Below are positions 3,672 through 63,200 of a stretch of 64,000 bases of DNA, one piece after another. The notes below the pieces were generated by a model. The model was not told the DNA's origin, made no database searches, and was given only the letters and a program-made list of their open reading frames with translations. The translations under genes were made by a program, and so were the position numbers. The first letter of the stretch is position 1. The number at the start of each line of letters is the position of its first letter. The DNA lies in assembly GCA_964357525.1 (NCBI GenBank), contig CAYHLH010000001.1, forward strand, positions 11,719 through 75,718, read 5' to 3'. Origin of the DNA: an uncultured Candidatus Saccharibacteria bacterium (GTDB lineage Bacteria > Patescibacteriota > Minisyncoccia > UBA6257 > GWB1-50-10).

Positions 3672-3746
3672 TCGGGCTGCCGGGAATTGAACCCGGTCTA
3701 CATGCACCCCATGCATGCGTACTGCCGGTATACTACAGCCCGAGTG
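3672..3746 (-). tRNA. tRNA-Pro (anticodon GGG)
   Basis: Reverse complement folds as a cloverleaf with anticodon loop ATGGGGT and T-arm GGGTTCAATTCCC; coordinates approximate by a few nt. Confidence 0.75.
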
Positions 3747-3810
3747 AAGGAGGGATGCTATCTTTCGAAGAAAGATACAGCCCTAACGCACCAAAATTGT
3801 AGCGAAATAA

Positions 3811-3835
3811 AAAAATATCCGCAATTCGCGGATAT
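3811..3835 (-). terminator. Bidirectional hairpin terminator (ATATCCGCAATTCGCGGATAT) flanked by A/T runs
   Basis: Perfect palindrome downstream of ORF 3887..4267. Confidence 0.45.
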
Positions 3836-39039: not shown

Positions 39040-39297
39040 TTATTTTTCATTGATAGTGTGAGAGAGAATCTTCTTCATATAATTTCTTCCCCATCCGGTC
39101 TTGAAATATTGTTCACGTTGCATGGCATCCTTTTGATTTCTATACAACTCACAATAAATCAGTTCCCATGGCCTCTTGTTTTTCGTTGAATGTACCCTAC
39201 CTTTTTGATGCTCCTCAACCCGCCTCTTTATATCTTGAGAATAGCCGACATATACACTTTTGTCTCTTTTACTCCTCAAAATGTAGATGCCATACAT
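39040..39297 (-). CDS. GIY-YIG nuclease family protein (UPF0213-like, 85 aa)
   Basis: MYGIYILRS...VYVGYSQDIKRRVEEH...KRPWEL; ORF 39040..39333 trimmed to the second Met because the first 12 codons are simply the P1 arm sequence. Confidence 0.75.
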   Translation of the reverse strand: MYGIYILRSKRDKSVYVGYSQDIKRRVEEHQKGRVHSTKNKRPWELIYCELYRNQKDAMQREQYFKTGWGRNYMKKILSHTINEK

Positions 39298-55916: not shown

Positions 55917-56609
55917 CTACAACTTTCTCACCCTCTCGGGGAAATTGGAAATGACCCCGTCTACGCCCATATCCTCCACCGCGCGGATGTCCTCCGGCTC
56001 GTTCACCGTCCACGGGAACACCTTGAATCCCTCATAGTGCGCCTTTTCGACGAACGTGCGGTCTATCAGCTTGAACTGGGGATTCACGGAATAGGCATTT
56101 ATCTTCTTCGCGAACGAGAGCGCCTCAGCGAGGTCGGTCTTCGTAAGCACGCCGAGCCGCATACCGGGATCCATCTTCCTGACACTTTCCAATTCCCCAA
56201 ATATGAATGACGTGATGAGAATGTCTTCCCGCGGGGATTTCCAGAATTTTCGGAGATATTCCAGAACCTCCTTGCCTGTCACCTCCTGCTTAATCTCGAT
56301 GTTGAGCTTTATCTTCCCGTCGGCGAATACCAAGAGTTCGTCCAGGGTCGGGATGTGTTCTCCCTTCCCCGCGTCAAGTTCCTTGAGTTCTGCAAGCGTC
56401 TTTTCGGTAACCTTGCCCGTGCCGTTCGTAACGATACTCAAGTCCTCGTAGTGCGTAATGACTATCTCGCCCGATTTGCACCGCCACACATCGGTTTCTA
56501 TCATGTCGGCGCCGTCCGCGAGCGCCGTCCGGAACGACGCCATGGTGTTCTCCGGGGCTTCCCCGGCGGCGCCGCGATGTCCTATCTCCCACACACTGCG
56601 ATGAGGCAT
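55917..56609 (-). CDS. Glycerophosphodiester phosphodiesterase
   Basis: GDPD motifs HRG (IGHRGAAG) and METDV. Confidence 0.8.
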   Translation of the reverse strand: MPHRSVWEIGHRGAAGEAPENTMASFRTALADGADMIETDVWRCKSGEIVITHYEDLSIVTNGTGKVTEKTLAELKELDAGKGEHIPTLDELLVFADGKIKLNIEIKQEVTGKEVLEYLRKFWKSPREDILITSFIFGELESVRKMDPGMRLGVLTKTDLAEALSFAKKINAYSVNPQFKLIDRTFVEKAHYEGFKVFPWTVNEPEDIRAVEDMGVDGVISNFPERVRKL

Positions 56610-56648
56610 ATAGATCAGTATAGGGAACGTGTTGAAACCGAATTAAAA

Positions 56649-57179
56649 CTAAGATTTCTTGGTTTTCAGATATTCTCCCCTGCTCATAAGGCTTTTTGTG
56701 TCCGTGAGCCTATCAAGAAATATCTTGCCATCCAAGTGATCCGACTCATGCTGAATTATCCGTGCGAGCAATCCTTTTGCTTGAAGTTTGAATTTCTTGC
56801 CGTTTTCATCATAGGCCTCAACGGCAACCTCGTAAGACCTCATTACCTTTCCGAAAAGCCCGGATGAAGCCACACTTCCACATCCTTCGTACGCCGATAC
56901 TTGGCGTTTCGAATATTTTTTTATCTTTGGGTTTATAAAAACTCTCACTTTATCGGTTTCATTCGTTTTTCGTAATTTTGTTTTTCTTATTTCCGTCACA
57001 AATATTCTCAGATTTACTCCAATTTGCGGCGCGGCCATCCCCACAAGGTTATGATGCCTCATCGAGTCAATGAGATTCTTAATCGTGTTTTTTGTGGTCT
57101 TTAAACCGAAAGAAACTACGGCTTTTGATTTCTTTCTTATTACGGGATTCCCAACCTGCGTGGAGATTTTAACAACCAT
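56649..57179 (-). CDS. def: Peptide deformylase
   Basis: GMAAPQIG, EGCGS, HESDHLDG motifs. Confidence 0.9.
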   Translation of the reverse strand: MVVKISTQVGNPVIRKKSKAVVSFGLKTTKNTIKNLIDSMRHHNLVGMAAPQIGVNLRIFVTEIRKTKLRKTNETDKVRVFINPKIKKYSKRQVSAYEGCGSVASSGLFGKVMRSYEVAVEAYDENGKKFKLQAKGLLARIIQHESDHLDGKIFLDRLTDTKSLMSRGEYLKTKKS

Positions 57180-57244
57180 ATGATGAGTATACCAAAATTT
57201 TAATGGTTAAAATTCCGGGTTCCGGCTGGGCGGTTTGGGAGGGA

Positions 57245-57808
57245 TTAAAATTTTTTCCGCAAATAATCGGAAAATTGTCTCCAATTACCTATGTTATCTC
57301 CCCAAAATTGGAGCATGTCTTTTTGGGACATTTCCGAGGTGGTTATCTTATACCCGTCCGGTATGAATACCGAGTTCAACGGGGTGTATCTTTTCCTCCG
57401 CGGTTTCATCGTAATTTTTCCCTCTGTCGAATTGCAAAAAAGTTTCGGTTTTTTACCCGGCTCGCAATACGCCAAGCAATCCTTGAAGACCACAGAACGA
57501 TCTTTCTTCCCCTTCATCAAATTTACGTAGTCCTCCGCCCTAAACCAATGATTGACATATTTCACGAACGGTCCGGGGAAACCATTCAGGGCTTTGATAC
57601 ACGCTCCTGCATCGGTTACAAATACAGGCGCTTTGAATTTTTTGCTCGCCCATTCCACGGAAAATGACGCGATATCCTCCACATTCATACTTTGAATTTC
57701 CGGTGGCGCGATATCCTTTTGAATCAGTTTTATATTCAAGCCGGCAAAAGCTTTTTTTGCAATCGCAAATTTTTGCTTATTCCCCGTCAGAAAAATCAGT
57801 TTTTTCAT
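57245..57808 (-). CDS. rdgB: Non-canonical purine NTP pyrophosphatase (Ham1/RdgB family)
   Basis: LTGNKQK N-terminal motif and Ham1 fold. Confidence 0.7.
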   Translation of the reverse strand: MKKLIFLTGNKQKFAIAKKAFAGLNIKLIQKDIAPPEIQSMNVEDIASFSVEWASKKFKAPVFVTDAGACIKALNGFPGPFVKYVNHWFRAEDYVNLMKGKKDRSVVFKDCLAYCEPGKKPKLFCNSTEGKITMKPRRKRYTPLNSVFIPDGYKITTSEMSQKDMLQFWGDNIGNWRQFSDYLRKKF

Positions 57809-57817
57809 ATAAGACCA

Positions 57818-58063
57818 TTAAAGCACTATTTGGGGCGTTTTAGGAGGGCGAGCCGAAGGTACTGAGATTTGAAAATCGAAGTGCTGACGTATCCGGTTGT
57901 TATGAATTGAAAGAATTTTTACGATTTTTCTTGATTTGAAAAAATAATTCCAAAGCCATTTATGGGCAAGTAGAAGGCCGGTTATTAAAATAGTAAAAAA
58001 TATACTAATAACAAGATTTTCCACGAACCATTTTAATGCTGACAATATAAATTTATTTTCCAT
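57818..58063 (-). CDS. Hypothetical small membrane protein
   Basis: 81 aa AT-rich ORF. Confidence 0.3.
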   Translation of the reverse strand: MENKFILSALKWFVENLVISIFFTILITGLLLAHKWLWNYFFKSRKIVKILSIHNNRIRQHFDFQISVPSARPPKTPQIVL

Positions 58064-58141
58064 CGAATTAATTGCTATTTAACCACAATTTTGTTATTTT
58101 TTCAATTTTTAATTTTCGGACAGGGAATCTCATCCTTCGGT

Positions 58142-58411
58142 CTACTCAGGACTTTCAGCACCGCTCGTTTTTTTTATTAAAGAGAGTTTTTTGTCTCTGC
58201 GCCAGCCTTTGATTTCCTTTTCCCTGCGCCGTGCTTCTACAAGAGTTTTGAACTTCTCTGAATGTGCCAAAGCGACAGGCCGACGGATCTTCGTGTAATG
58301 AGCACCCCATTTTGAGTTGTTGTGCTGTTCTATTCTCCTTTTAAGATTATTCGTACAACCCACGTACAATGATTCGTCGTCGCACCGGAGAATATAAACA
58401 AAATACCCCAC
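58142..58411 (-). CDS. GIY-YIG nuclease family protein (UPF0213-like, 89 aa)
   Basis: MGYFVYILRCDDESLYVGCTNNLKRRIEQH; flanked by repeats that resemble the tRNA-Gln 3' end. Confidence 0.75.
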   Translation of the reverse strand: MGYFVYILRCDDESLYVGCTNNLKRRIEQHNNSKWGAHYTKIRRPVALAHSEKFKTLVEARRREKEIKGWRRDKKLSLIKKTSGAESPE

Positions 58412-58525
58412 AGGGATATTTTATCACTTCGTCATCCTTCGTTTACACTCAGGATTCCTCAGTGCCTTCGTCTTTTCTATATTTAGTGGGTCGCAGACCC
58501 TGAGGAGCACAGGGTGCGACGAAGG

Positions 58526-58700
58526 GCTGCGGGACAGGGAATCGAATCTCTAGGTCTCTGACCGGGACCCCGGTCGCTTCGCGACCTAGGGGCCCCAATT
58601 TTTTGGTTTCCCTAGGTCTCTGACCGGGACCCCGGTCGCTCCGCGACCTAGGGGCAGAGCCATGTGTCCTATCCCTAGGTAAATTTATGCCTTTTCCTGC
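58526..58700 (-). pseudogene. Disrupted tRNA-Gln-like copy interrupted by two 44-nt palindromic elements
   Basis: 3' part GATTCGATTCCCTGTCCCGCAGC and 5' part GGATAGGACACATGGCTCTG match the intact tRNA-Gln; two copies of CCTAGGTCTCTGACCGGGACCCCGGTCGC(T/C)(T/C)CGCGACCTAGGGG lie between them; no acceptor pairing. Confidence 0.5.
58551..58653. repeat. Tandem pair of 44-nt hairpin-rich palindromic elements (third copy at 59029-59074)
   Basis: CCTAGGTC...GACCTAGG outer stem, GACCGGGACCCCGGTC inner palindrome; three copies within 550 nt. Confidence 0.7.
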
Positions 58701-58710
58701 TATCCAAAGC

Positions 58711-58781
58711 TGCGGGACTAGGAATCGAACCTAGATTCCATGGTTCAGAGCCATGTATCCTACCGTTAGATGATCCCGCAG
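58711..58781 (-). tRNA. tRNA-Gln (anticodon CTG)
   Basis: Reverse complement TGCGGGATCATCTAACGGTAGGATACATGGCTCTGAACCATGGAATCTAGGTTCGATTCCTAGTCCCGCAG. Confidence 0.75.
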
Positions 58782-58789
58782 CTTTGGAT

Positions 58790-59025
58790 ACCAATAACTT
58801 TTTAAGCTTACCGCCCCACGGGGTGTACTTCAACGCCCATTCCTTTTTACGAGCTTCAGATAATGATTTAAAGAATTCACTGTATACTAACCGCAAGGGG
58901 CGTCTGAATCTCGTACTTTTGACCTTGCCGCCATTGTGAGTAACAATCCTCTTCTCAAGATTCATACAGGTTCCTGTATAAAAATTTCCATCTTTTTCGC
59001 TTTTCAAAATATAAAGATACGGCAT
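58790..59025 (-). CDS. GIY-YIG nuclease family protein (UPF0213-like, ~78 aa)
   Basis: MPYLYILKSEKDGNFYTGTCMNLEKRIVTHN; ORF 58675..59082 is open through tRNA-Gln, so the 3' end is approximate; start trimmed to MPYLYIL; preceded by the third copy of the 44-nt palindrome. Confidence 0.65.
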
Positions 59026-59189
59026 AAATTTACCGGGACCCCGGTCGCTTCGCGACCTAGGGGCCGTTAGACGATCCCGCAATGGTTTACCTGCGGCAGA
59101 CAGGCATTTTTGATATTAGCGCACTCTATTTTTGAAAACAATCCCGACGTAAGGTCGATACTCCGACTGAAACGTCGGAGGAAATCAAA

Positions 59190-59222
59190 AAGCCGCTTCT
59201 AAAAGGAGCGGCTTTGAATTTT
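59190..59222. terminator. Bidirectional hairpin terminator (AAAGCCGCTCCTTTTAGAAGCGGCTTT)
   Basis: Flanked by A-run and T-run. Confidence 0.5.
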
Positions 59223-59235
59223 TACCGCGCTGCGG

Positions 59236-59508
59236 TCAGACAGCAAACAACCGTACTATCGGATACATCTCTTCTTTGGTGGCGCCTACCAGGGCCTTTC
59301 CGACGCAGAGTTTCCGCAGATCCTCCCCTTTCGCGGCCAAAGCGGCCGCGACCCAAAACGTCGAATCCAAGCTTATCGACCTCACCTCATTCAACAGATT
59401 TTTCCTCTCCTGCTCGCTTACGTCGCCGTATTGGAGCGTGTAAATGCACGCTTCTGCCTGTTCTATCTTCGCAAGACAGCCTACGCTTTTCATTGTCGCT
59501 CCTATCAT
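59236..59508 (-). CDS. Hypothetical protein (~90 aa)
   Basis: Third gene of a three-gene run with ATGA overlaps. Confidence 0.35.
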   Translation of the reverse strand: MIGATMKSVGCLAKIEQAEACIYTLQYGDVSEQERKNLLNEVRSISLDSTFWVAAALAAKGEDLRKLCVGKALVGATKEEMYPIVRLFAV

Positions 59509-59807
59509 GACAACACCTCCTCTTTCTTGAGAAGAAATTTTTCGGGAAGATTGAAAGAACGCACCAGAACATCGTTTATTTCTGTTGGGGTGCCTCCCCA
59601 TCTTCTCGCGAGTTCCCACTTGATGCGTTTCAGCGATTTCTCATTCCTCCAAGGAGTTTCTTCACGTCCACGGCTTAAGGTCCTGACACGTACAACAAAT
59701 GCCTCTATAAGCCATTCATCATCGTGCGTGCTGAAATCTTCGGTTATTTGAGAGTCCGCCGGGATTTCGGATTTCGGCAAAAATTGTTTTTTATACATGC
59801 ACATCAC
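59505..59807 (-). CDS. Hypothetical protein (100 aa)
   Basis: Overlaps neighbours by 4 nt on both sides. Confidence 0.35.
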   Translation of the reverse strand: MMCMYKKQFLPKSEIPADSQITEDFSTHDDEWLIEAFVVRVRTLSRGREETPWRNEKSLKRIKWELARRWGGTPTEINDVLVRSFNLPEKFLLKKEEVLS

Positions 59808-60094
59808 ACACCTCCCTTGCTTTCCGACGGCGTTTCCGAACCGTTGTTGTATATGCTCTCGTCGCCCAAAAACCTGCTCACTGCCTGTTCGAGTTCAATC
59901 AGTTTCTCTCCGGTGGTTTCCTCCGAACCACCGTTCATATGGATGTATATCTTCACAATGTCTTCCTTGAGAACCCTTTCTTTTTCCCTGTATGTGCGAT
60001 CCATTACAACAGTTGTTATAAAGAAGGCCAATAAAAGGATGATGCAGATGATTACCAACACAAAAACCCATGTCGCTATTTTTATTTCTATCAT
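59804..60094 (-). CDS. Hypothetical small membrane protein (96 aa, N-terminal TM)
   Basis: First gene of the small operon, divergent from tig. Confidence 0.35.
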   Translation of the reverse strand: MIEIKIATWVFVLVIICIILLLAFFITTVVMDRTYREKERVLKEDIVKIYIHMNGGSEETTGEKLIELEQAVSRFLGDESIYNNGSETPSESKGGV

Positions 60095-60380
60095 GACTCC
60101 TCCGTTTTTAAATTTATAATTGATCGTTTACTGTATTCATAAATACAACAAAAAGCGTTACGAGTCAATCCACTCACCCTTCTCCGAAGGATGAGGGATA
60201 AGTTTTCTTGCCCGTGCGCTTTTTCTGTAATATCGTAGAACCCTATGCCCAGTAATACAACTTCGATGCGCTCTGTGGAAAAAGTAAAAGCGAAGAGAAG
60301 AGGCTGGGAAAAAGAAACAATGCAAACAAAGAACCACACACCTTGTCGCGGTGTAACCAATCGAAGTTGATATACTGGGT

Positions 60381-61376
60381 ATGCCAAAACCCTACGACAA
60401 GATAAAGATAACGACGAAGGACGCGGTAACGACGATAGAAGGCATCGTCACGCTGGAGGCGATAGAAGAGGAAAAGGCGGACGCTTTCCGCGACATCGTC
60501 GCGAACTTCAAGGCGCCCGGATTCAGGCCCGGAAAGGTGCCGGAAACCATCGTGAGGGAACACGTTTCCGAGAAAGACCTCTTCGAGGAGGGCGCGAACG
60601 AGGCCTTGAAGCTCGCGTATCCCGAAATTTTGGACGAGTTCAATATCCGCCCCCTCACCTATCCGCGTGTGGAGGTGAAGAAAATAGAGCTAGGGAGCCC
60701 GCTCGAGTTCACCATACGTGTGGGCGTCGCGCCGGAATTCAGGCTCCCGAACTGGAAATCCATAGGGAAAAGCGTCCCGTTGGAGACGCCGGAAGTGAAA
60801 GACGAGGATGTGGAAAAATTCCTAAAAGAAGTGGAATCAATGCGCTCCACGAAGGAAAAGCCGTTCCTACTCACGGACGAAACCGCGAAAGAGCTCGGAA
60901 AATTCGAAAACCTCGCGGAACTGAAGGCGAAGCTCAAGGAAAACCTCCTCGTGGAAAAAACCGAAGCGATGAAGGCGAAGCGGCGCGAGGCGCTCTCCAA
61001 AAAGCTCCTTGAGGAGACGAAGATCGAGCTCCCGAAATTCTGGGAGGAGGAGGAAAAGGCGGCGATACTCGCCGAACTGGAAGAGCACGCCCAAAGCCAC
61101 AAGATCCCCAAGGAAAGGTTCCTGGAGGGCTTCAACAAGACCGAGGCGCAGTTCGCCGACGAGGAGCTCATGCACCGAGCGAGGCGGGAGAAGATCAAAA
61201 TGATATTGGACAAGCTCGCCGAGAAGGAACGTCTCCAAGCAAGCGACGAGGAAGTGGAACGCGAAGCGATGCACCTCCGGACCCATTACGGGGAAACGGA
61301 CCACGAAAAATTGAAGGAACTCGCCCGCCAGGGGCTCTTGCGGGAAAAGGCGCTGGAACTCGTGGAAAACGCGTAA
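60381..61376 (+). CDS. tig: Trigger factor (short form, 331 aa)
   Basis: N-terminal ribosome-binding domain with GFRPGKVP signature; C-terminal arm domain; PPIase domain apparently reduced. Confidence 0.75.
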   Translation: MPKPYDKIKITTKDAVTTIEGIVTLEAIEEEKADAFRDIVANFKAPGFRPGKVPETIVREHVSEKDLFEEGANEALKLAYPEILDEFNIRPLTYPRVEVKKIELGSPLEFTIRVGVAPEFRLPNWKSIGKSVPLETPEVKDEDVEKFLKEVESMRSTKEKPFLLTDETAKELGKFENLAELKAKLKENLLVEKTEAMKAKRREALSKKLLEETKIELPKFWEEEEKAAILAELEEHAQSHKIPKERFLEGFNKTEAQFADEELMHRARREKIKMILDKLAEKERLQASDEEVEREAMHLRTHYGETDHEKLKELARQGLLREKALELVENA

Positions 61377-61430
61377 AAAACAGGGACCGCAAATGGGTCC
61401 CTTGGTAATCATCGTTTGTCTTTTCCTTAA

Positions 61431-61886
61431 TTAGCCCCCGTTATCCACATTAACGGGAACAGCCCCTCCACTACACTCTATTTTTTCCTTCGAGTACAAG
61501 TATGTTTTGCTTCCGTCTTGCGGAAACGAAAGATAACTGACATAATAATTTCCCTTCTCTTCGGTGAACCCTACATATACCAGTTCCACTCCGGAGTGGA
61601 AACTATCATTGCAGTTGATCTTTCCTGTAATGCTCACATTGCAGGGGTCACTTGAATCGTCAACACGGATCGAGGCGCCTTCTACCGTATTGTATAAAAT
61701 GGCATGCCCGTTCCTTCTCCGATATAAGTATTTGCAATTCTCAAAGACCTTCCCGTGAAGTTCCTGGATCTTATACACCCCGAAAAACGACTTCATTGAT
61801 TTCTCGATGCGTTTGCAGATTTTCTTGGTCGCTTCATTGAGCGCGAGCTCGCGACCGTTCGTGGATGTGGATAGCGTGGATTTCAA
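61431..61886 (-). CDS. Hypothetical protein (151 aa, Cys-containing)
   Basis: AT-rich ORF, no family recognised. Confidence 0.35.
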   Translation of the reverse strand: MKSTLSTSTNGRELALNEATKKICKRIEKSMKSFFGVYKIQELHGKVFENCKYLYRRRNGHAILYNTVEGASIRVDDSSDPCNVSITGKINCNDSFHSGVELVYVGFTEEKGNYYVSYLSFPQDGSKTYLYSKEKIECSGGAVPVNVDNGG

Positions 61887-61973
61887 TTTTTACCTCCTGT
61901 ATTTTAATAGATTTTTAAAGAAATATTTTTAATATTTCCTTGTCGGGCCTGGAGGGACGGGACTCGGAAACTA

Positions 61974-63200
61974 GTGCTTATTTTATCCCAGAAACGCCTG
62001 CATTGTCAATACCGTGGGTGTGCTATGATGCGAGCAATGGAGCCCTTGGCACACACAATCAGGCCGAAGAACCTCGACGAGTTCATCGGGCAGGAGCACT
62101 TGGTGGGAATCGGAAAGCCCATACGCGCCGCGATAGAAAAACGCCATCTTTTTTCATTCGCTCTTTGGGGGCCGCCCGGATGCGGAAAAACGACGCTCGC
62201 GAAGATTTACGCTTCGTCCCTTGACGCCGAGCTCTTCGAGCTCTCGGCGGTCTCCGCAAGCAAGGAGGACATCAGGAAGATCATCAAGGCGAAAAGCCCG
62301 CCTGGGCAGGCAGGCAAGAAGCCAAAAGTGATATTTTTGGACGAGATACACCGCTTCAATAAGGCACAGCAGGATTTCCTCCTCCCGTCCGTGGAGTCGG
62401 GCGAATTGACGCTAATCGGTGCGACGACCGAAAACCCGAGCTTCGAGATCATCGCCCCCCTCCTATCGCGGATGAGAGTGTTCGTCCTGAACGAGCTCTC
62501 CAAGGAGGAATTGAAGACCATCATCACGCGCACGGGGCTGTCGCTCGACAAGAAGGCCACTGAATGGCTCATCGATATCAGCAACGGCGACGCTCGGCAG
62601 CTCATCGGCATCCTCGAGCAGGCACACAAGCTCTATAAGGACATCAATGTCGAAACCTTGACGGAAACCATCCAGAACCGCTTCCTGCGGTACGACAAGC
62701 ACGGCGAGGAGCATTACAACACCATCTCCGCCTTCATCAAATCCATGAGAGCGTCGGATGCCGACGCCGCGCTCTACTACCTCGCGCGGATGGTGGAGTC
62801 CGGCGAGGACCCGAAGTTCATCGCGCGCAGGATGGTCATCTTCGCCTCGGAAGACGTCGGAATGAGCCAGCCGACGGCCTTGGTCATAGCGAACGATGTG
62901 TTCCGAGCGGTCGAGACCATAGGGCTTCCCGAATGCGCCATCAACCTCGCGCACGGGGTCGTTTACCTATGTCTTGCACCGAAAGACAGGACGGCATACG
63001 ACGGCCTCATGTCCGCTATGGACGACGTGAAGAAGCACGGGAATCTGCCTATCCCCCTTACGATCAGGAACGCGCCGACAAAGCTGATGAAGAACCTCGG
63101 ATACGGCAAGGGATACGAGAAATACGGAAAGGAGAGCCTGCTTCCGGAACGCTTGAAGGGTAAAAAGTACTTCATCCCCAAAAAGAAAACCCCGCAATAA
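61974..63200 (+). CDS. rarA: Replication-associated recombination protein A (AAA+ ATPase RarA/MgsA)
   Basis: Walker A GPPGCGKTT, Walker B FLDEIHRFN, MgsA C-terminal domains; true start probably MMRAMEP at ~62022. Confidence 0.85.
   Translation: MLILSQKRLHCQYRGCAMMRAMEPLAHTIRPKNLDEFIGQEHLVGIGKPIRAAIEKRHLFSFALWGPPGCGKTTLAKIYASSLDAELFELSAVSASKEDIRKIIKAKSPPGQAGKKPKVIFLDEIHRFNKAQQDFLLPSVESGELTLIGATTENPSFEIIAPLLSRMRVFVLNELSKEELKTIITRTGLSLDKKATEWLIDISNGDARQLIGILEQAHKLYKDINVETLTETIQNRFLRYDKHGEEHYNTISAFIKSMRASDADAALYYLARMVESGEDPKFIARRMVIFASEDVGMSQPTALVIANDVFRAVETIGLPECAINLAHGVVYLCLAPKDRTAYDGLMSAMDDVKKHGNLPIPLTIRNAPTKLMKNLGYGKGYEKYGKESLLPERLKGKKYFIPKKKTPQ

What the first reader, a model, noticed from the sequence alone, without database searches (positions are those of the whole stretch)
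58100..59090. A tRNA-Gln hotspot carries two more GIY-YIG genes, a broken tRNA-Gln copy split by 44-nt palindromic elements, and repeats resembling the tRNA 3' end
The following all lie within about 1 kb on the minus strand:
- an intact tRNA-Gln(CTG) at 58711-58781;
- a GIY-YIG gene whose open reading frame runs through the tRNA;
- a degenerate tRNA-Gln copy at 58526-58700. Its anticodon region is interrupted by two tandem copies of a 44-nt element with several internal hairpins (CCTAGGTCTCTGACCGGGACCCCGGTCGCTTCGCGACCTAGGGG). A third copy of this element sits just upstream of the GIY-YIG gene, at 59029-59074;
- a second GIY-YIG gene at 58142-58411. It is flanked by direct repeats that resemble the 3' end of the tRNA (CGGACAGGGAATC... 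at 58120 and GGGACAGGGAATCGAATC at 58527).

This looks like repeated insertion at a tRNA 3' end, but no integrase is present. The GIY-YIG nucleases themselves are candidate agents of the insertion.
Basis: seen in the sequence. Interest (0 to 1): 0.7.

Follow-up and report, generated by a model that had tools for sequence, protein, structure and literature searches.

The report
Nuclease cassettes nested inside tRNA-Gln genes
A 392-base selfish element, made of a minimal GIY-YIG nuclease gene plus its own spare tRNA-Gln, sits exactly inside the D-loop of an older tRNA-Gln gene that belongs to an earlier cassette of the same kind; the same design recurs in dozens of uncultured (CPR-type) bacteria, and I found no published description of it.

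Summary

- **Cassette 1.** It spans 59063-58672 on the minus strand. It holds a palindromic left end, GIY-YIG #1, an intact tRNA-Gln(CTG) and a right end. It lies exactly between G19 and U20 of an older tRNA-Gln.
- **The older tRNA.** It also carries two 46-nt ORF-less copies of the cassette ends, in the anticodon loop (36^37) and the T-loop (53^54). It is the tRNA partner of GIY-YIG #2.
- **A third generation.** GIY-YIG #2 is followed by a T-loop remnant of a still older tRNA-Gln.
- **Recurrence.** Thirty further loci from CPR-type MAGs and metagenomes share the cassette-1 design. The inner tRNA is always intact, while the interrupted outer copy is often decayed. Anticodons match in 16 of 17 loci.
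- **Wider family.** 73 of 98 related GIY-YIG genes abut a same-strand tRNA.

Best reading: these are homing-type GIY-YIG cassettes that break tRNA genes and bring a replacement. The closest known case is phage SegB. No nuclease activity or movement was shown here. I rate it a new variant of a known kind, with high interest.

The parts
59064..59081 (-). 5' piece (positions 1-19: acceptor 5' strand, D-stem 5' strand, D-loop up to G19) of the interrupted, middle-generation tRNA-Gln.
   Evidence: 17 of 18 identical to the start of the intact tRNA (family D5). The same piece precedes the element in about 25 related loci.
58672..59063 (-). Cassette 1 in full (392 nt): left palindromic end, GIY-YIG #1, inner tRNA-Gln and right end. 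It is inserted between G19 and U20 of the older tRNA, with no target duplication.
   Evidence: Sequence. Removing exactly this stretch and the two minis restores a sequence that ARAGORN calls tRNA-Gln. Thirty further loci share the architecture.
59032..59063 (-). Left end of cassette 1: cccctagg, hairpin a (tcgc-gaa-gcga) and the core accggggtcccggt.
   Evidence: family D1. The hairpin-a stem is kept with at least 12 different sequences, and the core is nearly invariant across 17 loci.
58783..59025 (-). GIY-YIG #1, a domain-only nuclease of 81 aa. The open frame continues through the tRNA to TAG 58677-58675.
   Evidence: Pfam PF01541, 3e-13. Closest solved structures are UPF0213 proteins 1zg2 and 1ywl. 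Y5, Y16, G18, R26, H30 and N31 are nearly invariant and E62 is invariant in 32 sequences. 20 of 21 distinct cassettes have no stop codon before the tRNA.
58710..58780 (-). Inner, intact tRNA-Gln(CTG): the replacement copy carried by cassette 1.
   Evidence: ARAGORN. Rfam tRNA 59.9 bits. 21 of 21 stem pairs.
58781..58792 (-). Helix P3, 5' arm (ggtatccaaagc). It also encodes the C-terminal ...VSKA. It pairs with 58699-58710 and extends the acceptor stem of the inner tRNA by 12 bp.
   Evidence: I3: 20-nt arms, 95% complementary. Cognate arms pair at 11.0 of 12 positions against 9.5 for non-cognate arms, with 14 distinct sequences.
58699..58710 (-). Helix P3, 3' arm (gctttggatagc, beginning with the discriminator G).
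59019..59034 (-). Helix P2, 5' arm (ggtaaatttATGccgt). It contains the start codon of GIY-YIG #1.
   Evidence: I2. Cognate arms pair at 15.4 of 16 positions against 12.9 for non-cognate arms, with 15 distinct sequences. The helix is predicted in the minimum-energy fold of the whole element, z = -4.9.
58678..58693 (-). Helix P2, 3' arm (aaggcataaatttacc).
58672..58680 (-). Right end of cassette 1 (acctaggga). It pairs with ccctaggt of the left end, and its TAG is the stop codon of the read-through frame.
   Evidence: The same terminus is found in all tRNA-Gln-type loci. It supplies the stop codon in 14 of 21 cassettes.
58655..58671 (-). Older tRNA-Gln, positions 20-36 (D-stem 3' strand, anticodon-stem 5' strand, anticodon CTG).
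   Evidence: family D4. Relative to the inner tRNA, the D-stem shows a compensatory A-U to G-C change.
58609..58654 (-). Mini B: 46-nt ORF-less copy of the cassette ends, inserted in the anticodon loop (36^37).
   Evidence: Other minis occupy the same position in L042 and L050. Folds with z = -2.5.
58593..58608 (-). Older tRNA-Gln, positions 37-53 (aaccaaaaaattgggg).
   Evidence: The anticodon stem has only 3 of 5 pairs.
58547..58592 (-). Mini C: 46-nt ORF-less copy, inserted in the T-loop (53^54).
   Evidence: The same position is occupied in L020, L006/L039/L040 and L038, and in L005 by a different palindromic mini.
58527..58546 (-). Older tRNA-Gln, positions 54-73 (T-loop, T-stem 3' strand, acceptor 3' strand, discriminator).
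   Evidence: family D2.
58412..58526 (-). Conserved spacer between the tRNA-Gln and GIY-YIG #2. It contains a hairpin and the motif gacgaaggcactgagga.
   Evidence: Aligns with the spacers of L100, L104, L109, L110 and L111. Function unknown; no Rfam match.
58142..58411 (-). GIY-YIG #2, from a very abundant subfamily that normally lies 70-220 nt downstream of a tRNA-Gln. Together with the older tRNA-Gln it forms cassette 2.
   Evidence: Pfam 8.5e-18. 2327 homologues found. In 5 of 6 independent loci a tRNA-Gln, or in L111 the tRNA 3' end at the contig edge, lies upstream on the same strand.
58432..58454 (-). Upstream copy of the direct repeat flanking GIY-YIG #2 (tcctgagtgtaaacgaaggatga).
   Evidence: (family D9).
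58130..58151 (-). Downstream copy of that direct repeat (tcctgagtagaccgaaggatga). It contains the stop codon of GIY-YIG #2.
   Evidence: (family D9).
58118..58129 (-). Remnant (gattccctgtcc: T-loop end, T-stem 3' strand, start of acceptor 3' strand) of the oldest tRNA-Gln, displaced by cassette 2.
   Evidence: Exact 12-mer shared only with 58532-58543. L109 has the equivalent remnant, gag^attccaagtcccgcagc, after its GIY-YIG #2-type gene. 14 of 27 'tRNA-upstream' cassettes carry such a 3' repeat, against 0 with shuffled queries.

Best explanation
The locus is a stack of small selfish cassettes that target the tRNA-Gln gene and make good the damage by bringing a replacement tRNA.

**Cassette 2 (older).** It consists of a tRNA-Gln, a 115-nt spacer and GIY-YIG #2. 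It displaced part of a still older tRNA-Gln, of which only a T-loop-onward remnant survives at 58118-58129.

**Cassette 1 (younger, 392 nt).** It then entered the D-loop of cassette 2's tRNA, exactly between G19 and U20. It consists of:
- a palindromic left end;
- an 81-aa GIY-YIG nuclease gene whose start codon is buried in a helix (P2);
- a complete tRNA-Gln(CTG) held in a 12-bp extension of its acceptor stem (P3);
- a right end that pairs with the left end.

**After insertion.** The invaded tRNA is now a pseudogene. It has picked up two 46-nt ORF-less copies of the cassette ends, in its anticodon loop and T-loop.

**Shown.**
- The exact insertion junctions.
- The conserved composite design in 31 loci.
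- Covarying helices.
- Inner tRNAs that are always intact against outer copies that decay.
- Matching anticodons.
- Uninterrupted tRNA-Gln genes at the homologous position in other genomes.

**Inferred.**
- The GIY-YIG enzyme breaks tRNA-gene DNA in the regions that encode cloverleaf loops.
- Host recombination repair then copies the cassette into the break (homing).
- The resident tRNA promoter transcribes the nuclease mRNA and the spare tRNA together.
- RNase P and RNase Z release the tRNA. This also truncates the stop-less mRNA and so keeps nuclease levels low.
For: **Precise insertion**
- Removing 59063-58672 and the two minis restores a sequence that ARAGORN calls tRNA-Gln. The same holds for 12 of 19 distinct loci.

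**Conserved unit**
- 31 loci, including the window, have a tRNA-Gln 244-249 nt after the ATG on the same strand.
- About 25 of them show the same outer 5' piece, left end, right end and outer remainder.
- Predicted homologous proteins carry the read-in 'APRS..DRGPG' and the read-through 'AAGSSNGRT...LGSNPSPAAL..KRHKHT', which are translations of the end and of the tRNA.

**Replacement logic**
- Inner tRNAs have 21 of 21 stem pairs in 16 of 17 loci.
- Outer copies reach 21 of 21 in only 5 of 19, with a mean of 17.6.
- Inner and outer anticodons agree in 16 of 17 loci. They agree in 8 of the 9 loci whose anticodon stems differ at 4 or more positions (p = 0.02).

**Resident versus imported**
- Outer 5' and 3' acceptor halves covary with each other and differ from the inner tRNA in L006/L039, L007 and L028.
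- The cassettes closest to the window's sit in different isoacceptor genes: the outer tRNA is CTG in the window but TTG in L020.

**Empty site**
- L104 and L110 have an uninterrupted tRNA-Gln, spacer and GIY-YIG #2-type gene, collinear with the window once its inserts are removed.
- L100 has the filled state with a different GIY-YIG cassette.

**Nuclease as agent**
- The cassettes encode nothing else.
- The conserved GIY-YIG motif residues (Y5, Y16, R26, E62) are invariant or nearly so.
- 73 of 98 related genes have a tRNA within 150 nt, always on the same strand.
- 14 of 27 'tRNA-upstream' cassettes are followed by a palindromic element and then a repeat of the tRNA from T54 to its 3' end; shuffled queries gave 0.

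**Structure**
- Helices P2 and P3 and hairpin a covary.
- The whole-element fold has z = -4.9.

**Precedent**
- Phage SegB, a GIY-YIG enzyme, recognises the T-psi-C motif of tRNA genes, homes together with neighbouring tRNA genes and amplifies tRNA+segB segments (PMC2330249; PMC13096335, sections 9-10).
Against: - No nuclease activity, cleavage site or movement has been observed. Everything is comparative.
- The enzyme is only about 81 aa and lacks the DNA-binding domain that SegB and I-TevI use for long target sites. It does not match SegB-type families.
- The carried tRNA has the same D-arm sequence as the target, so a purely sequence-specific enzyme should also cut its own cargo.
- The minis occupy four different positions whose flanks share only G^T or G^A. 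Simple homology-driven homing does not easily explain that.
- About a third of loci have identical anticodon arms in the inner and outer copies. Gene conversion between the copies blurs what was imported.
- No filled/empty polymorphism was found within the window's own population.
- The loci were found through the GIY-YIG gene, so the sampling is biased towards occupied sites.
Confidence: 0.65

Rival explanations
1. The palindromic ends and minis are mobilised in trans by some other enzyme, for example a REP/RAYT-like or IS200/IS605-like single-strand transposase, or host recombination at hairpins. On this view the GIY-YIG gene is a passenger with another role, such as repair or defence.
For: - The minis resemble REP/PATE-type elements: subterminal hairpins, no target duplication and no ORF.
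- A hydrolytic GIY-YIG enzyme cannot perform strand transfer by itself.
- The minis sit at several sites that share little flanking homology.
Against: - No such enzyme is present in the cassette or nearby.
- Different GIY-YIG subfamilies come with their own distinct palindromic elements at the junction: L008, L009, L011-L014 and the cctagcca type. That argues for co-evolution of nuclease and ends.
- Within the 64-kb window the repeat occurs only at this locus, not as a dispersed family. Nearly all copies in about 305 kb of sampled related loci lie in tRNA-Gln sequence.
Confidence: 0.15
2. The inserts are intervening sequences removed at RNA level, which would be a new kind of bacterial tRNA intron. 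The interrupted tRNA-Gln would then still be functional.
For: - The junctions are exact, and excision in silico restores a tRNA in 12 of 19 loci, including the window.
- The element ends pair (helix P1) and would bring the two tRNA halves together.
- Some outer copies are flawless once excised: L001, L007, L028 and L039.
- CPR bacteria are rich in unusual insertions in rRNA and tRNA genes (PMC11270868, PMC13011429).
Against: - Outer copies decay: 14 of 19 have broken stem pairs and 7 of 19 are no longer recognised as tRNAs.
- An intact tRNA with the same anticodon always sits inside the insert.
- There is no group I or II intron, ribozyme or bulge-helix-bulge signal (junction sequences).
- The window's copy would need three separate removals and still has a 3-of-5 anticodon stem.
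Confidence: 0.05
3. Nothing is mobile. The locus reflects local tandem duplication and decay of tRNA-Gln genes, with hairpin repeats accumulating in dead copies and an unrelated small gene nearby.
For: - Tandem and partial duplicates do occur: L056, L011 and L001 at 3690-3815.
- Gene conversion between copies is evident.
Against: - The arrangement is nested, not tandem, with single-base-precise junctions repeated in about 25 loci.
- MAG record titles assign the genome loci to several candidate phyla, although some labels look unreliable.
- The cassette, including its tRNA flanks P2 and P3, is conserved as one unit.
- The inner and outer acceptor stems differ in lineage-specific, compensated ways.
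Confidence: 0.05

Closest known systems
Phage T4/T6 SegB, a free-standing GIY-YIG homing endonuclease in the tRNA gene cluster
   Same: - It is a GIY-YIG nuclease gene lying among tRNA genes.
- Its target includes the conserved T-psi-C stem-loop motif of tRNA genes.
- It spreads together with adjacent tRNA genes.
- It drives recombination-dependent amplification of tRNA+segB segments.
- It is statistically enriched next to tRNAs of many isotypes (PMC2330249; PMC13096335, sections 9-10).
- Here too the T-loop (G53^T54) is a recurrent junction, and tandem GIY-YIG/tRNA-fragment units occur (L011).
   Different: - SegB carries a DNA-binding region beyond its GIY-YIG domain (own knowledge; the papers read here report a 27-bp recognition site and an inactive C-terminally truncated form). 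The proteins here are about 80-aa domain-only proteins of the UPF0213 type with no SegB-family match.
- SegB lies between genes. Here the cassette lies inside a tRNA gene at a single-base-precise loop position.
- Here the cassette carries a whole replacement tRNA (or the part from T54 to the 3' end), has structured palindromic ends and has ORF-less mini derivatives.
- The hosts here are cellular (CPR-type) genomes. Only one distant relative of the nuclease, and no copy of the element ends, was found in viral contigs.
tRNA-targeting integrative islands and prophages (tyrosine integrases)
   Same: Insertion into a tRNA gene is made harmless because the element carries a copy of the displaced tRNA part. 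This leaves direct repeats of the tRNA 3' region at both ends. The 'tRNA-upstream' cassettes show exactly this (14 of 27), and so does GIY-YIG #2 in the window.
   Different: - There is no integrase and no att-site crossover.
- The elements are 0.3-0.4 kb rather than tens of kb.
- Junctions lie in the D-loop or T-loop rather than in the anticodon or T-arm to 3'-end segment that integrases use.
- The D-loop type carries a complete tRNA.
Homing endonuclease genes inside group I introns of bacterial tRNA genes
   Same: A nuclease gene sits inside a tRNA gene, and the host keeps tRNA function despite the insertion.
   Different: Function is kept by a spare gene copy, not by splicing. No intron or ribozyme is detectable. 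The known Patescibacteria tRNA introns are group I, lie in the anticodon loop and mostly lack homing endonuclease genes (PMC13011429).
GIY-YIG-encoding, non-intron insertion sequences in CPR rRNA genes (Tsurumaki et al. 2024, PMC11270868)
   Same: The same host group is involved, and GIY-YIG genes sit inside structural-RNA genes within insertions that are neither group I nor group II introns.
   Different: Those insertions are in rRNA genes and are described as sparse and apparently not spreading by homing. That paper reports no carried replacement gene, palindromic ends or minis, and it never uses the term 'tRNA gene'.
IS200/IS605 with PATE derivatives, and REP elements with RAYT transposases
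   Same: They have hairpin-forming ends, no target duplication, insertion next to a short specific sequence, and short ORF-less derivatives made of the ends only (my own knowledge of these families).
   Different: The enzyme there is an HUH tyrosine transposase, not a GIY-YIG hydrolase. Those elements are dispersed genome-wide, whereas all copies here lie in tRNA(-Gln) sequences.

Membership tests
GIY-YIG nuclease superfamily | Sequence match to the GIY-YIG catalytic domain above the curated threshold | tested here: met
   PF01541: 50.2 bits for #1 and 64.9 bits for #2, against a cutoff of 22.6. The third gene at 39040-39294 is related by tblastn.
GIY-YIG nuclease superfamily | Conserved catalytic residues (two Tyr, Arg, Glu; His/Asn) | tested here: met
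   Y5, Y16, G18, R26, H30 and N31 are at least 90% conserved and E62 is invariant in 32 sequences. Residue roles are assigned by analogy with UvrC and I-TevI from my own knowledge.
GIY-YIG nuclease superfamily | Nuclease activity | not testable with these tools
   Requires biochemistry.
Free-standing homing endonuclease (SegB-like) | Occupied and empty alleles at a homologous site | tested here: met
   An uninterrupted tRNA-Gln + spacer + GIY-YIG #2-type gene in L104 and L110, against an interrupted tRNA in the window and L100. These are different species; no polymorphism was found within one population.
Free-standing homing endonuclease (SegB-like) | Site-specific cleavage of the empty allele | not testable with these tools
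   Requires an in vitro cleavage assay.
Free-standing homing endonuclease (SegB-like) | Nuclease domain joined to a sequence-reading DNA-binding domain; membership in Seg/Tev families | tested here: not met
   The protein is 81 aa and the domain covers residues 1-66. TIGR01453 scores 18 bits against a cutoff of 56. No PHROG match for #1.
Free-standing homing endonuclease (SegB-like) | Co-conversion of flanking markers | tested here: inconclusive
   In several outer copies the 5' and 3' acceptor halves do not match each other, yet each matches a variant common elsewhere (L003, L024, L042, L023, L029). This is suggestive only.
tRNA (inner copy) | Cloverleaf scoring above the Rfam tRNA threshold | tested here: met
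   59.9 bits against a threshold of 29; ARAGORN calls it Gln(CTG).
Group I / group II intron or self-cleaving ribozyme | Match to a curated RNA family | tested here: not met
   cmscan at E <= 10 over 57500-59700 found only the tRNA plus chance-level miRNA and sRNA hits.
MITE (miniature inverted-repeat transposable element) | Terminal inverted repeats shared with an ORF-bearing parent | tested here: met
   The minis and cassette 1 share the ends CCCCTAGG...CCTAGGGA and the core ACCGGGGTCCCGG.
MITE (miniature inverted-repeat transposable element) | Target-site duplication | tested here: not met
   The junctions restore the tRNA sequence with no duplicated bases.
MITE (miniature inverted-repeat transposable element) | Many dispersed genomic copies | tested here: not met
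   There are only three copies in the 64-kb window, all at this locus. In about 305 kb of related loci, nearly all copies lie in tRNA-Gln sequence. Whole genomes were not examined.
Integrase-type tRNA island | Tyrosine or serine recombinase gene | tested here: not met
   None among the ORFs of 56500-61000. The cassette holds only the GIY-YIG gene.
Integrase-type tRNA island | Direct repeat of the tRNA 3' part at the far end of the element | tested here: met
   Window positions 58118-58129; 14 of 27 'tRNA-upstream' cassettes.

The most novel reading that the evidence does not exclude
These cassettes are a new class of DNA transposon rather than ordinary homing genes. On this reading a minimal GIY-YIG nuclease of about 80 aa, of the structure-specific UPF0213/Slx1 type, recognises folded DNA rather than sequence. 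It would recognise its own cloverleaf-like palindromic ends and the hairpin loops that a tRNA gene forms when single-stranded. All observed junctions (13^14, 19^20, 36^37, 53^54) fall in cloverleaf loops. The element inserts without target duplication, spawns 42-67-nt ORF-less derivatives, and survives in essential tRNA genes by carrying a replacement tRNA.
Probability: 0.25. Interest if true: 0.9.

Novelty: new variant of a known kind. Interest (0 to 1): 0.78.

Why it matters
**A third way to invade an essential gene.** Selfish nuclease genes are known to do this through introns or inteins, which splice themselves out, or through integrases, which rebuild the target's 3' end. Here the element simply brings a full spare copy of the gene, expressed from the victim's own promoter.

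**Consequences if the reading holds**
- It explains why small 'GIY-YIG nuclease family protein' genes are so abundant next to tRNA genes in CPR/Patescibacteria genomes (2327 homologues for one subfamily).
- It explains why tRNA-Gln loci there hold pseudo-tRNAs and break assemblies.
- tRNA genes in these reduced genomes would be turned over horizontally.
- It gives a cellular counterpart to phage SegB.
- The 80-aa nuclease with defined structured DNA ends would be a compact system for studying structure-directed DNA cleavage.

**Practical point.** Annotation pipelines currently merge the element end, nuclease and tRNA into one false 115-135-aa protein.

Tried and rejected
- **Rfam families.** A permissive search (E <= 10) over 57500-59700 looked for introns, ribozymes and tRNA-like families. 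It found only the intact tRNA and chance-level hits. A hammerhead-like look of the spacer (CUGAGGA...GACGAAG) is therefore not supported.
- **Strand test.** I counted G-T against A-C mismatches in helices P1-P3 to decide between an RNA (or one-strand) structure and a symmetric DNA structure. The result was 20 against 12 (p = 0.2), which is undecided.
- **Viral contigs.**
  - The 14-mer core gave only chance hits with no element around them.
  - A longer end pattern gave 0 hits.
  - A protein-based scan gave one distant hit.
  - So there is no sign that phages carry these cassettes.
- **Empty site in the window's own lineage.** The upstream 90-aa neighbour has no homologues other than itself. 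All five contigs that carry it are the same genotype or break inside the locus.
- **Naming the organism.** The cluster look-up returned no names. Assignment to CPR-type bacteria rests on three things: bacterial marker genes (def, trigger factor, mraY), the 0.1-um groundwater sample names and the MAG labels of related loci.
- **Assembly artefact.** Rejected, because independent assemblies agree.
- **Literature.** Seven full-text searches found no description of GIY-YIG+tRNA cassettes nested in tRNA genes. The library is incomplete, so this is absence of evidence only.
- **Not attempted.** Structure prediction of the nuclease was skipped as not decisive.


Full report
**1. Observation check**

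All features lie on the minus strand.
- ARAGORN and Rfam find one intact tRNA-Gln(CTG) at 58710-58780.
- Two ORFs match the GIY-YIG domain above Pfam's threshold.
  - GIY-YIG #1 starts at ATG 59025. It has no stop codon until TAG 58677-58675, so its frame runs through the tRNA.
  - GIY-YIG #2 lies at 58142-58411.
A partial third copy lies at 59032-59063.
- The 12-mer GGACAGGGAATC occurs exactly only at 58118 and 58532.
- Independent assemblies of the same groundwater population give the same sequence.

**2. Anatomy of the window**

- At 59081-59064 lie the first 18 nt of a tRNA-Gln (tgcgggatcgtctaacgg), matching the intact copy at 17 of 18 positions.
- Directly after G19 begins a 392-nt insert (59063-58672), made of:
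  - a left end, cccctaggtcgcgaagcgaccggggtcccggt;
  - a 16-nt strand containing the ATG (helix P2);
  - the 81-aa GIY-YIG #1;
  - a 12-nt strand (helix P3);
  - the intact tRNA-Gln;
  - the complementary P3 strand, then the complementary P2 strand;
  - the right end, acctaggga, which pairs with the left end.
- Directly after that, the interrupted tRNA resumes at U20 (taggacacatggctctg).
- It is broken again after the anticodon by a 46-nt ORF-less copy of the ends (58654-58609).
- It continues (aaccaaaaaattgggg) and is broken a third time between G53 and T54 by another 46-nt copy (58592-58547).
- It finishes with ttcgattccctgtcccgcag (58546-58527).

With the three inserts removed, the sequence has acceptor 7/7, D-stem 4/4, anticodon stem 3/5 and T-stem 5/5 pairs. 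ARAGORN calls it tRNA-Gln(CTG).

**3. The design is conserved**

- The 31 closest homologues of GIY-YIG #1 (60-80% identity) mostly carry an N-terminal 'APRS..DRGPG' and a C-terminal 'AAGSSNGRT...LGSNPSPAAL..KRHKHT'. These are translations of the palindromic end, a tRNA and the right end.
- I fetched 17 genome loci and 80 metagenome loci. Thirty of them share the window's layout, with a tRNA-Gln (CTG or TTG) 244-249 nt after the ATG on the same strand.
- About 25 of these show the full layout: outer 5' piece ending ...taa(t/c)GG, left end, cassette...cctaggga, then Taggac... and the rest of the outer tRNA.
- By their record titles, the genome loci come from MAGs labelled Harrison-, Jorgensen-, Sacchari-, Buchanan-, Yanofsky- and Uhrbacteria.

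**4. Nested helices covary**

| Element | Cognate arms | Non-cognate arms | Distinct sequences |
|---|---|---|---|
| P2 (start-codon region against right end) | 15.4 of 16 paired | 12.9 of 16 | 15 |
| P3 (12-bp extension of the inner acceptor stem, including the discriminator) | 11.0 of 12 paired | 9.5 of 12 | 14 |

- The stem of hairpin a is kept with at least 12 different sequences. The core ccggggtcccgg is nearly invariant.
- The whole element folds with z = -4.9, and the minimum-energy structure contains P2 and P3.
- The minis fold as a closing stem plus two or three hairpins, with z between -2.5 and -6.5.
- G-T against A-C counts (20 against 12) do not show whether the structure matters as RNA or as DNA.

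**5. Which copy is functional**

- Inner tRNAs have all 21 stem pairs in 16 of 17 distinct loci. The exception is a register artefact caused by an 8-nt D-loop.
- Outer copies, after exact excision, have all 21 pairs in only 5 of 19 (mean 17.6). Seven of 19 are no longer recognised as tRNAs.
- In L006/L039, L007 and L028, the outer 5' and 3' acceptor halves pair with each other yet differ from the inner tRNA through compensated changes. The outer halves therefore belong to one resident gene, and the inner tRNA has a different origin.
- Inner and outer anticodons agree in 16 of 17 loci. They agree in 8 of the 9 loci whose anticodon stems differ at 4 or more of 10 positions (p = 0.02). This is expected if only insertions that replace the lost function survive.
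- About a third of loci have identical anticodon arms in both copies, so gene conversion between them also occurs.

**6. The minis**

- ORF-less elements of 42-67 nt share the ends (CCCCTAGG...CCTAGGGA) and the core.
- They recur at four positions of tRNA-Gln sequences: 13^14, 19^20, 36^37 and 53^54. All are in cloverleaf loops, and none shows a target duplication.
- In about 305 kb of related loci nearly all copies lie in tRNA-Gln sequence. Within the 64-kb window they occur only at this locus.
- Every example I inspected lies in an interrupted or truncated tRNA copy, with an intact tRNA-Gln elsewhere in the same locus.

**7. GIY-YIG #2 and the third generation**

- GIY-YIG #2 belongs to a very large subfamily, with 2327 hits at 70-83% identity among the best.
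- In 5 of 6 independent loci of close homologues, a tRNA-Gln lies 70-220 nt upstream on the same strand. It is followed by a spacer that aligns with the window's.
- L104 and L110 carry an uninterrupted tRNA-Gln there. This is the empty state for cassette 1.
- L100 (a Giovannonibacteria relative) shows the filled state with a different GIY-YIG+tRNA-Gln cassette.
- In L109 the GIY-YIG #2-type gene is followed by gag^attccaagtcccgcagc, a remnant of an older tRNA-Gln from the T-loop onward. A 5' remnant lies upstream.
- The window's gag^attccctgtccg (58118-58131) is the same kind of remnant.
- More widely, 14 of 27 distinct cassettes with a tRNA just upstream are followed by a palindromic element ending ...cctagcca. 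After it comes a repeat of that tRNA from T54 to its 3' end. Shuffled controls gave none.
- The window therefore records three generations of tRNA-Gln: the remnant, the interrupted middle copy tied to GIY-YIG #2, and the intact inner copy tied to GIY-YIG #1.

**8. The wider family**

- 73 of 98 loci have a tRNA within 150 nt of the GIY-YIG domain, always on the same strand.
- The tRNAs are of many isotypes: Gln, Arg, Val, Ile, Cys, Lys, Thr, Pro, Met, Gly, Leu, Asp and Ala.

**9. Mechanism**

- **Shown:** precise, duplication-free insertion into loop-coding positions of tRNA genes; a conserved unit of structured ends, nuclease gene and tRNA; an intact carried tRNA against a decaying target; empty sites in other genomes.
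- **Inferred from established knowledge of GIY-YIG homing enzymes and of SegB in particular** (PMC2330249; PMC13096335):
  - the nuclease breaks tRNA-gene DNA, and recombination repair copies the cassette into the break;
  - the resident tRNA promoter drives a transcript from which RNase P and RNase Z release the tRNA.
- **Translation control (also inferred):**
  - 20 of 21 distinct cassettes have no stop codon before the tRNA, and 14 stop at the TAG of the right end;
  - tRNA processing would therefore leave a stop-less mRNA;
  - helix P2 buries the start codon;
  - both features would keep a dangerous enzyme scarce.
- **Open problems:**
  - the enzyme is domain-only, at 81 aa. Its nearest solved relatives are UPF0213 proteins, with a weak SLX1 match;
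  - the cargo tRNA carries the same D-arm as the target;
  - the minis occupy sites with almost no shared flanks.
  - These three points favour recognition of folded DNA and leave room for a transposon-like mechanism.

**10. Comparison with what is known**

- The closest match is phage SegB. The proteins here fail the sequence-family and domain-architecture tests for it.
- The cassettes resemble integrase islands in restoring their tRNA target, but they have no integrase.
- They resemble intron-borne homing genes in living inside a tRNA gene, but no intron is present.
- CPR rRNA genes are reported to hold GIY-YIG genes in non-intron insertions (PMC11270868). The survey of Patescibacteria tRNA introns does not mention GIY-YIG.
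- Seven literature searches found no description of this architecture.
- I therefore class it as a new variant of a known kind. There is a real chance (about 0.25) that it is a distinct class of structure-directed mobile element.

**11. Caveats**

- All evidence is comparative.
- The loci were found through the nuclease gene.
- No whole genomes were examined.
- Neither nuclease activity nor mobility was demonstrated.

Noticed in passing
window 39040-39294 (minus strand): A third small GIY-YIG gene sits in an AT-rich island between a DD-carboxypeptidase-like gene and mraY, with no tRNA nearby. It is flanked by a 19-nt inverted repeat (cccgccaaaatttttgaat-ATG ... attcaaaaatttaggcggg). That repeat would bury the start codon in a helix, as P2 does in cassette 1. 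Not all cassettes of this family are tied to tRNAs.
   Followed up: partly
L234, L235, L236 (same population as the window): Other assemblies of this population end inside or just before cassette 1. The repeated tRNA-Gln pieces and minis apparently break short-read assemblies. Such loci are probably under-represented in MAGs.
   Followed up: no
L011 2900-3650: An intact tRNA-Arg(CCG) is followed by two tandem units of GIY-YIG gene, palindromic element and tRNA-Arg fragment from T54 onward. This resembles the SegB-driven segmental amplification described for phage T6.
   Followed up: partly
L056 970-1310: An intact tRNA-Gln(TTG) is followed 4 nt later by a copy carrying a 67-nt mini between positions 13 and 14; downstream of the mini the two copies are identical. 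A third, truncated copy with the same mini lies upstream. This points to recent duplication or gene conversion around the nuclease gene.
   Followed up: no
L001 3690-3815: There is an extra partial duplicate of the inner-tRNA 3' end, right end and outer tRNA positions 20-53. It ends in a truncated element at 53^54, which is evidence of repeated rearrangement at one locus.
   Followed up: no
L016 2900-3360 (MAG labelled Chitinophagaceae): A distant GIY-YIG gene is flanked by direct repeats of about 60 nt that contain a tRNA-like T-arm and acceptor 3' end, with a palindromic insert in one copy. The phenomenon may extend beyond CPR bacteria, unless the contig is mis-binned.
   Followed up: no
window 58412-58526 and the spacers of L100, L104, L109, L110, L111: The roughly 115-nt spacer between the tRNA-Gln and GIY-YIG #2-type genes is conserved in loci from several different samples and assemblies (hairpin cccttcgtcgc...; motif gacgaaggcactgagga). 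It has no Rfam match. Its function is unknown; it may be a leader or regulatory RNA.
   Followed up: partly
window 58397-58425 (minus strand): A 13-bp hairpin (gataaaatatccc-tgt-ggggtattttgtt) encloses the GTG start codon of GIY-YIG #2. This is another case of a buried start codon in these nuclease genes.
   Followed up: no
window 56000-62000: This stretch has 45-49% G+C in a window that is mostly 52-63%. The low-GC zone extends beyond the cassettes into the neighbouring def and HAM1-like genes.
   Followed up: no
protein predictions P0003-P0027 (public databases): Gene callers merge the element end, nuclease and tRNA into single 105-140-aa 'proteins'. Their N- and C-terminal tails are translated non-coding DNA, which is a systematic annotation artefact for this family.
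   Followed up: yes
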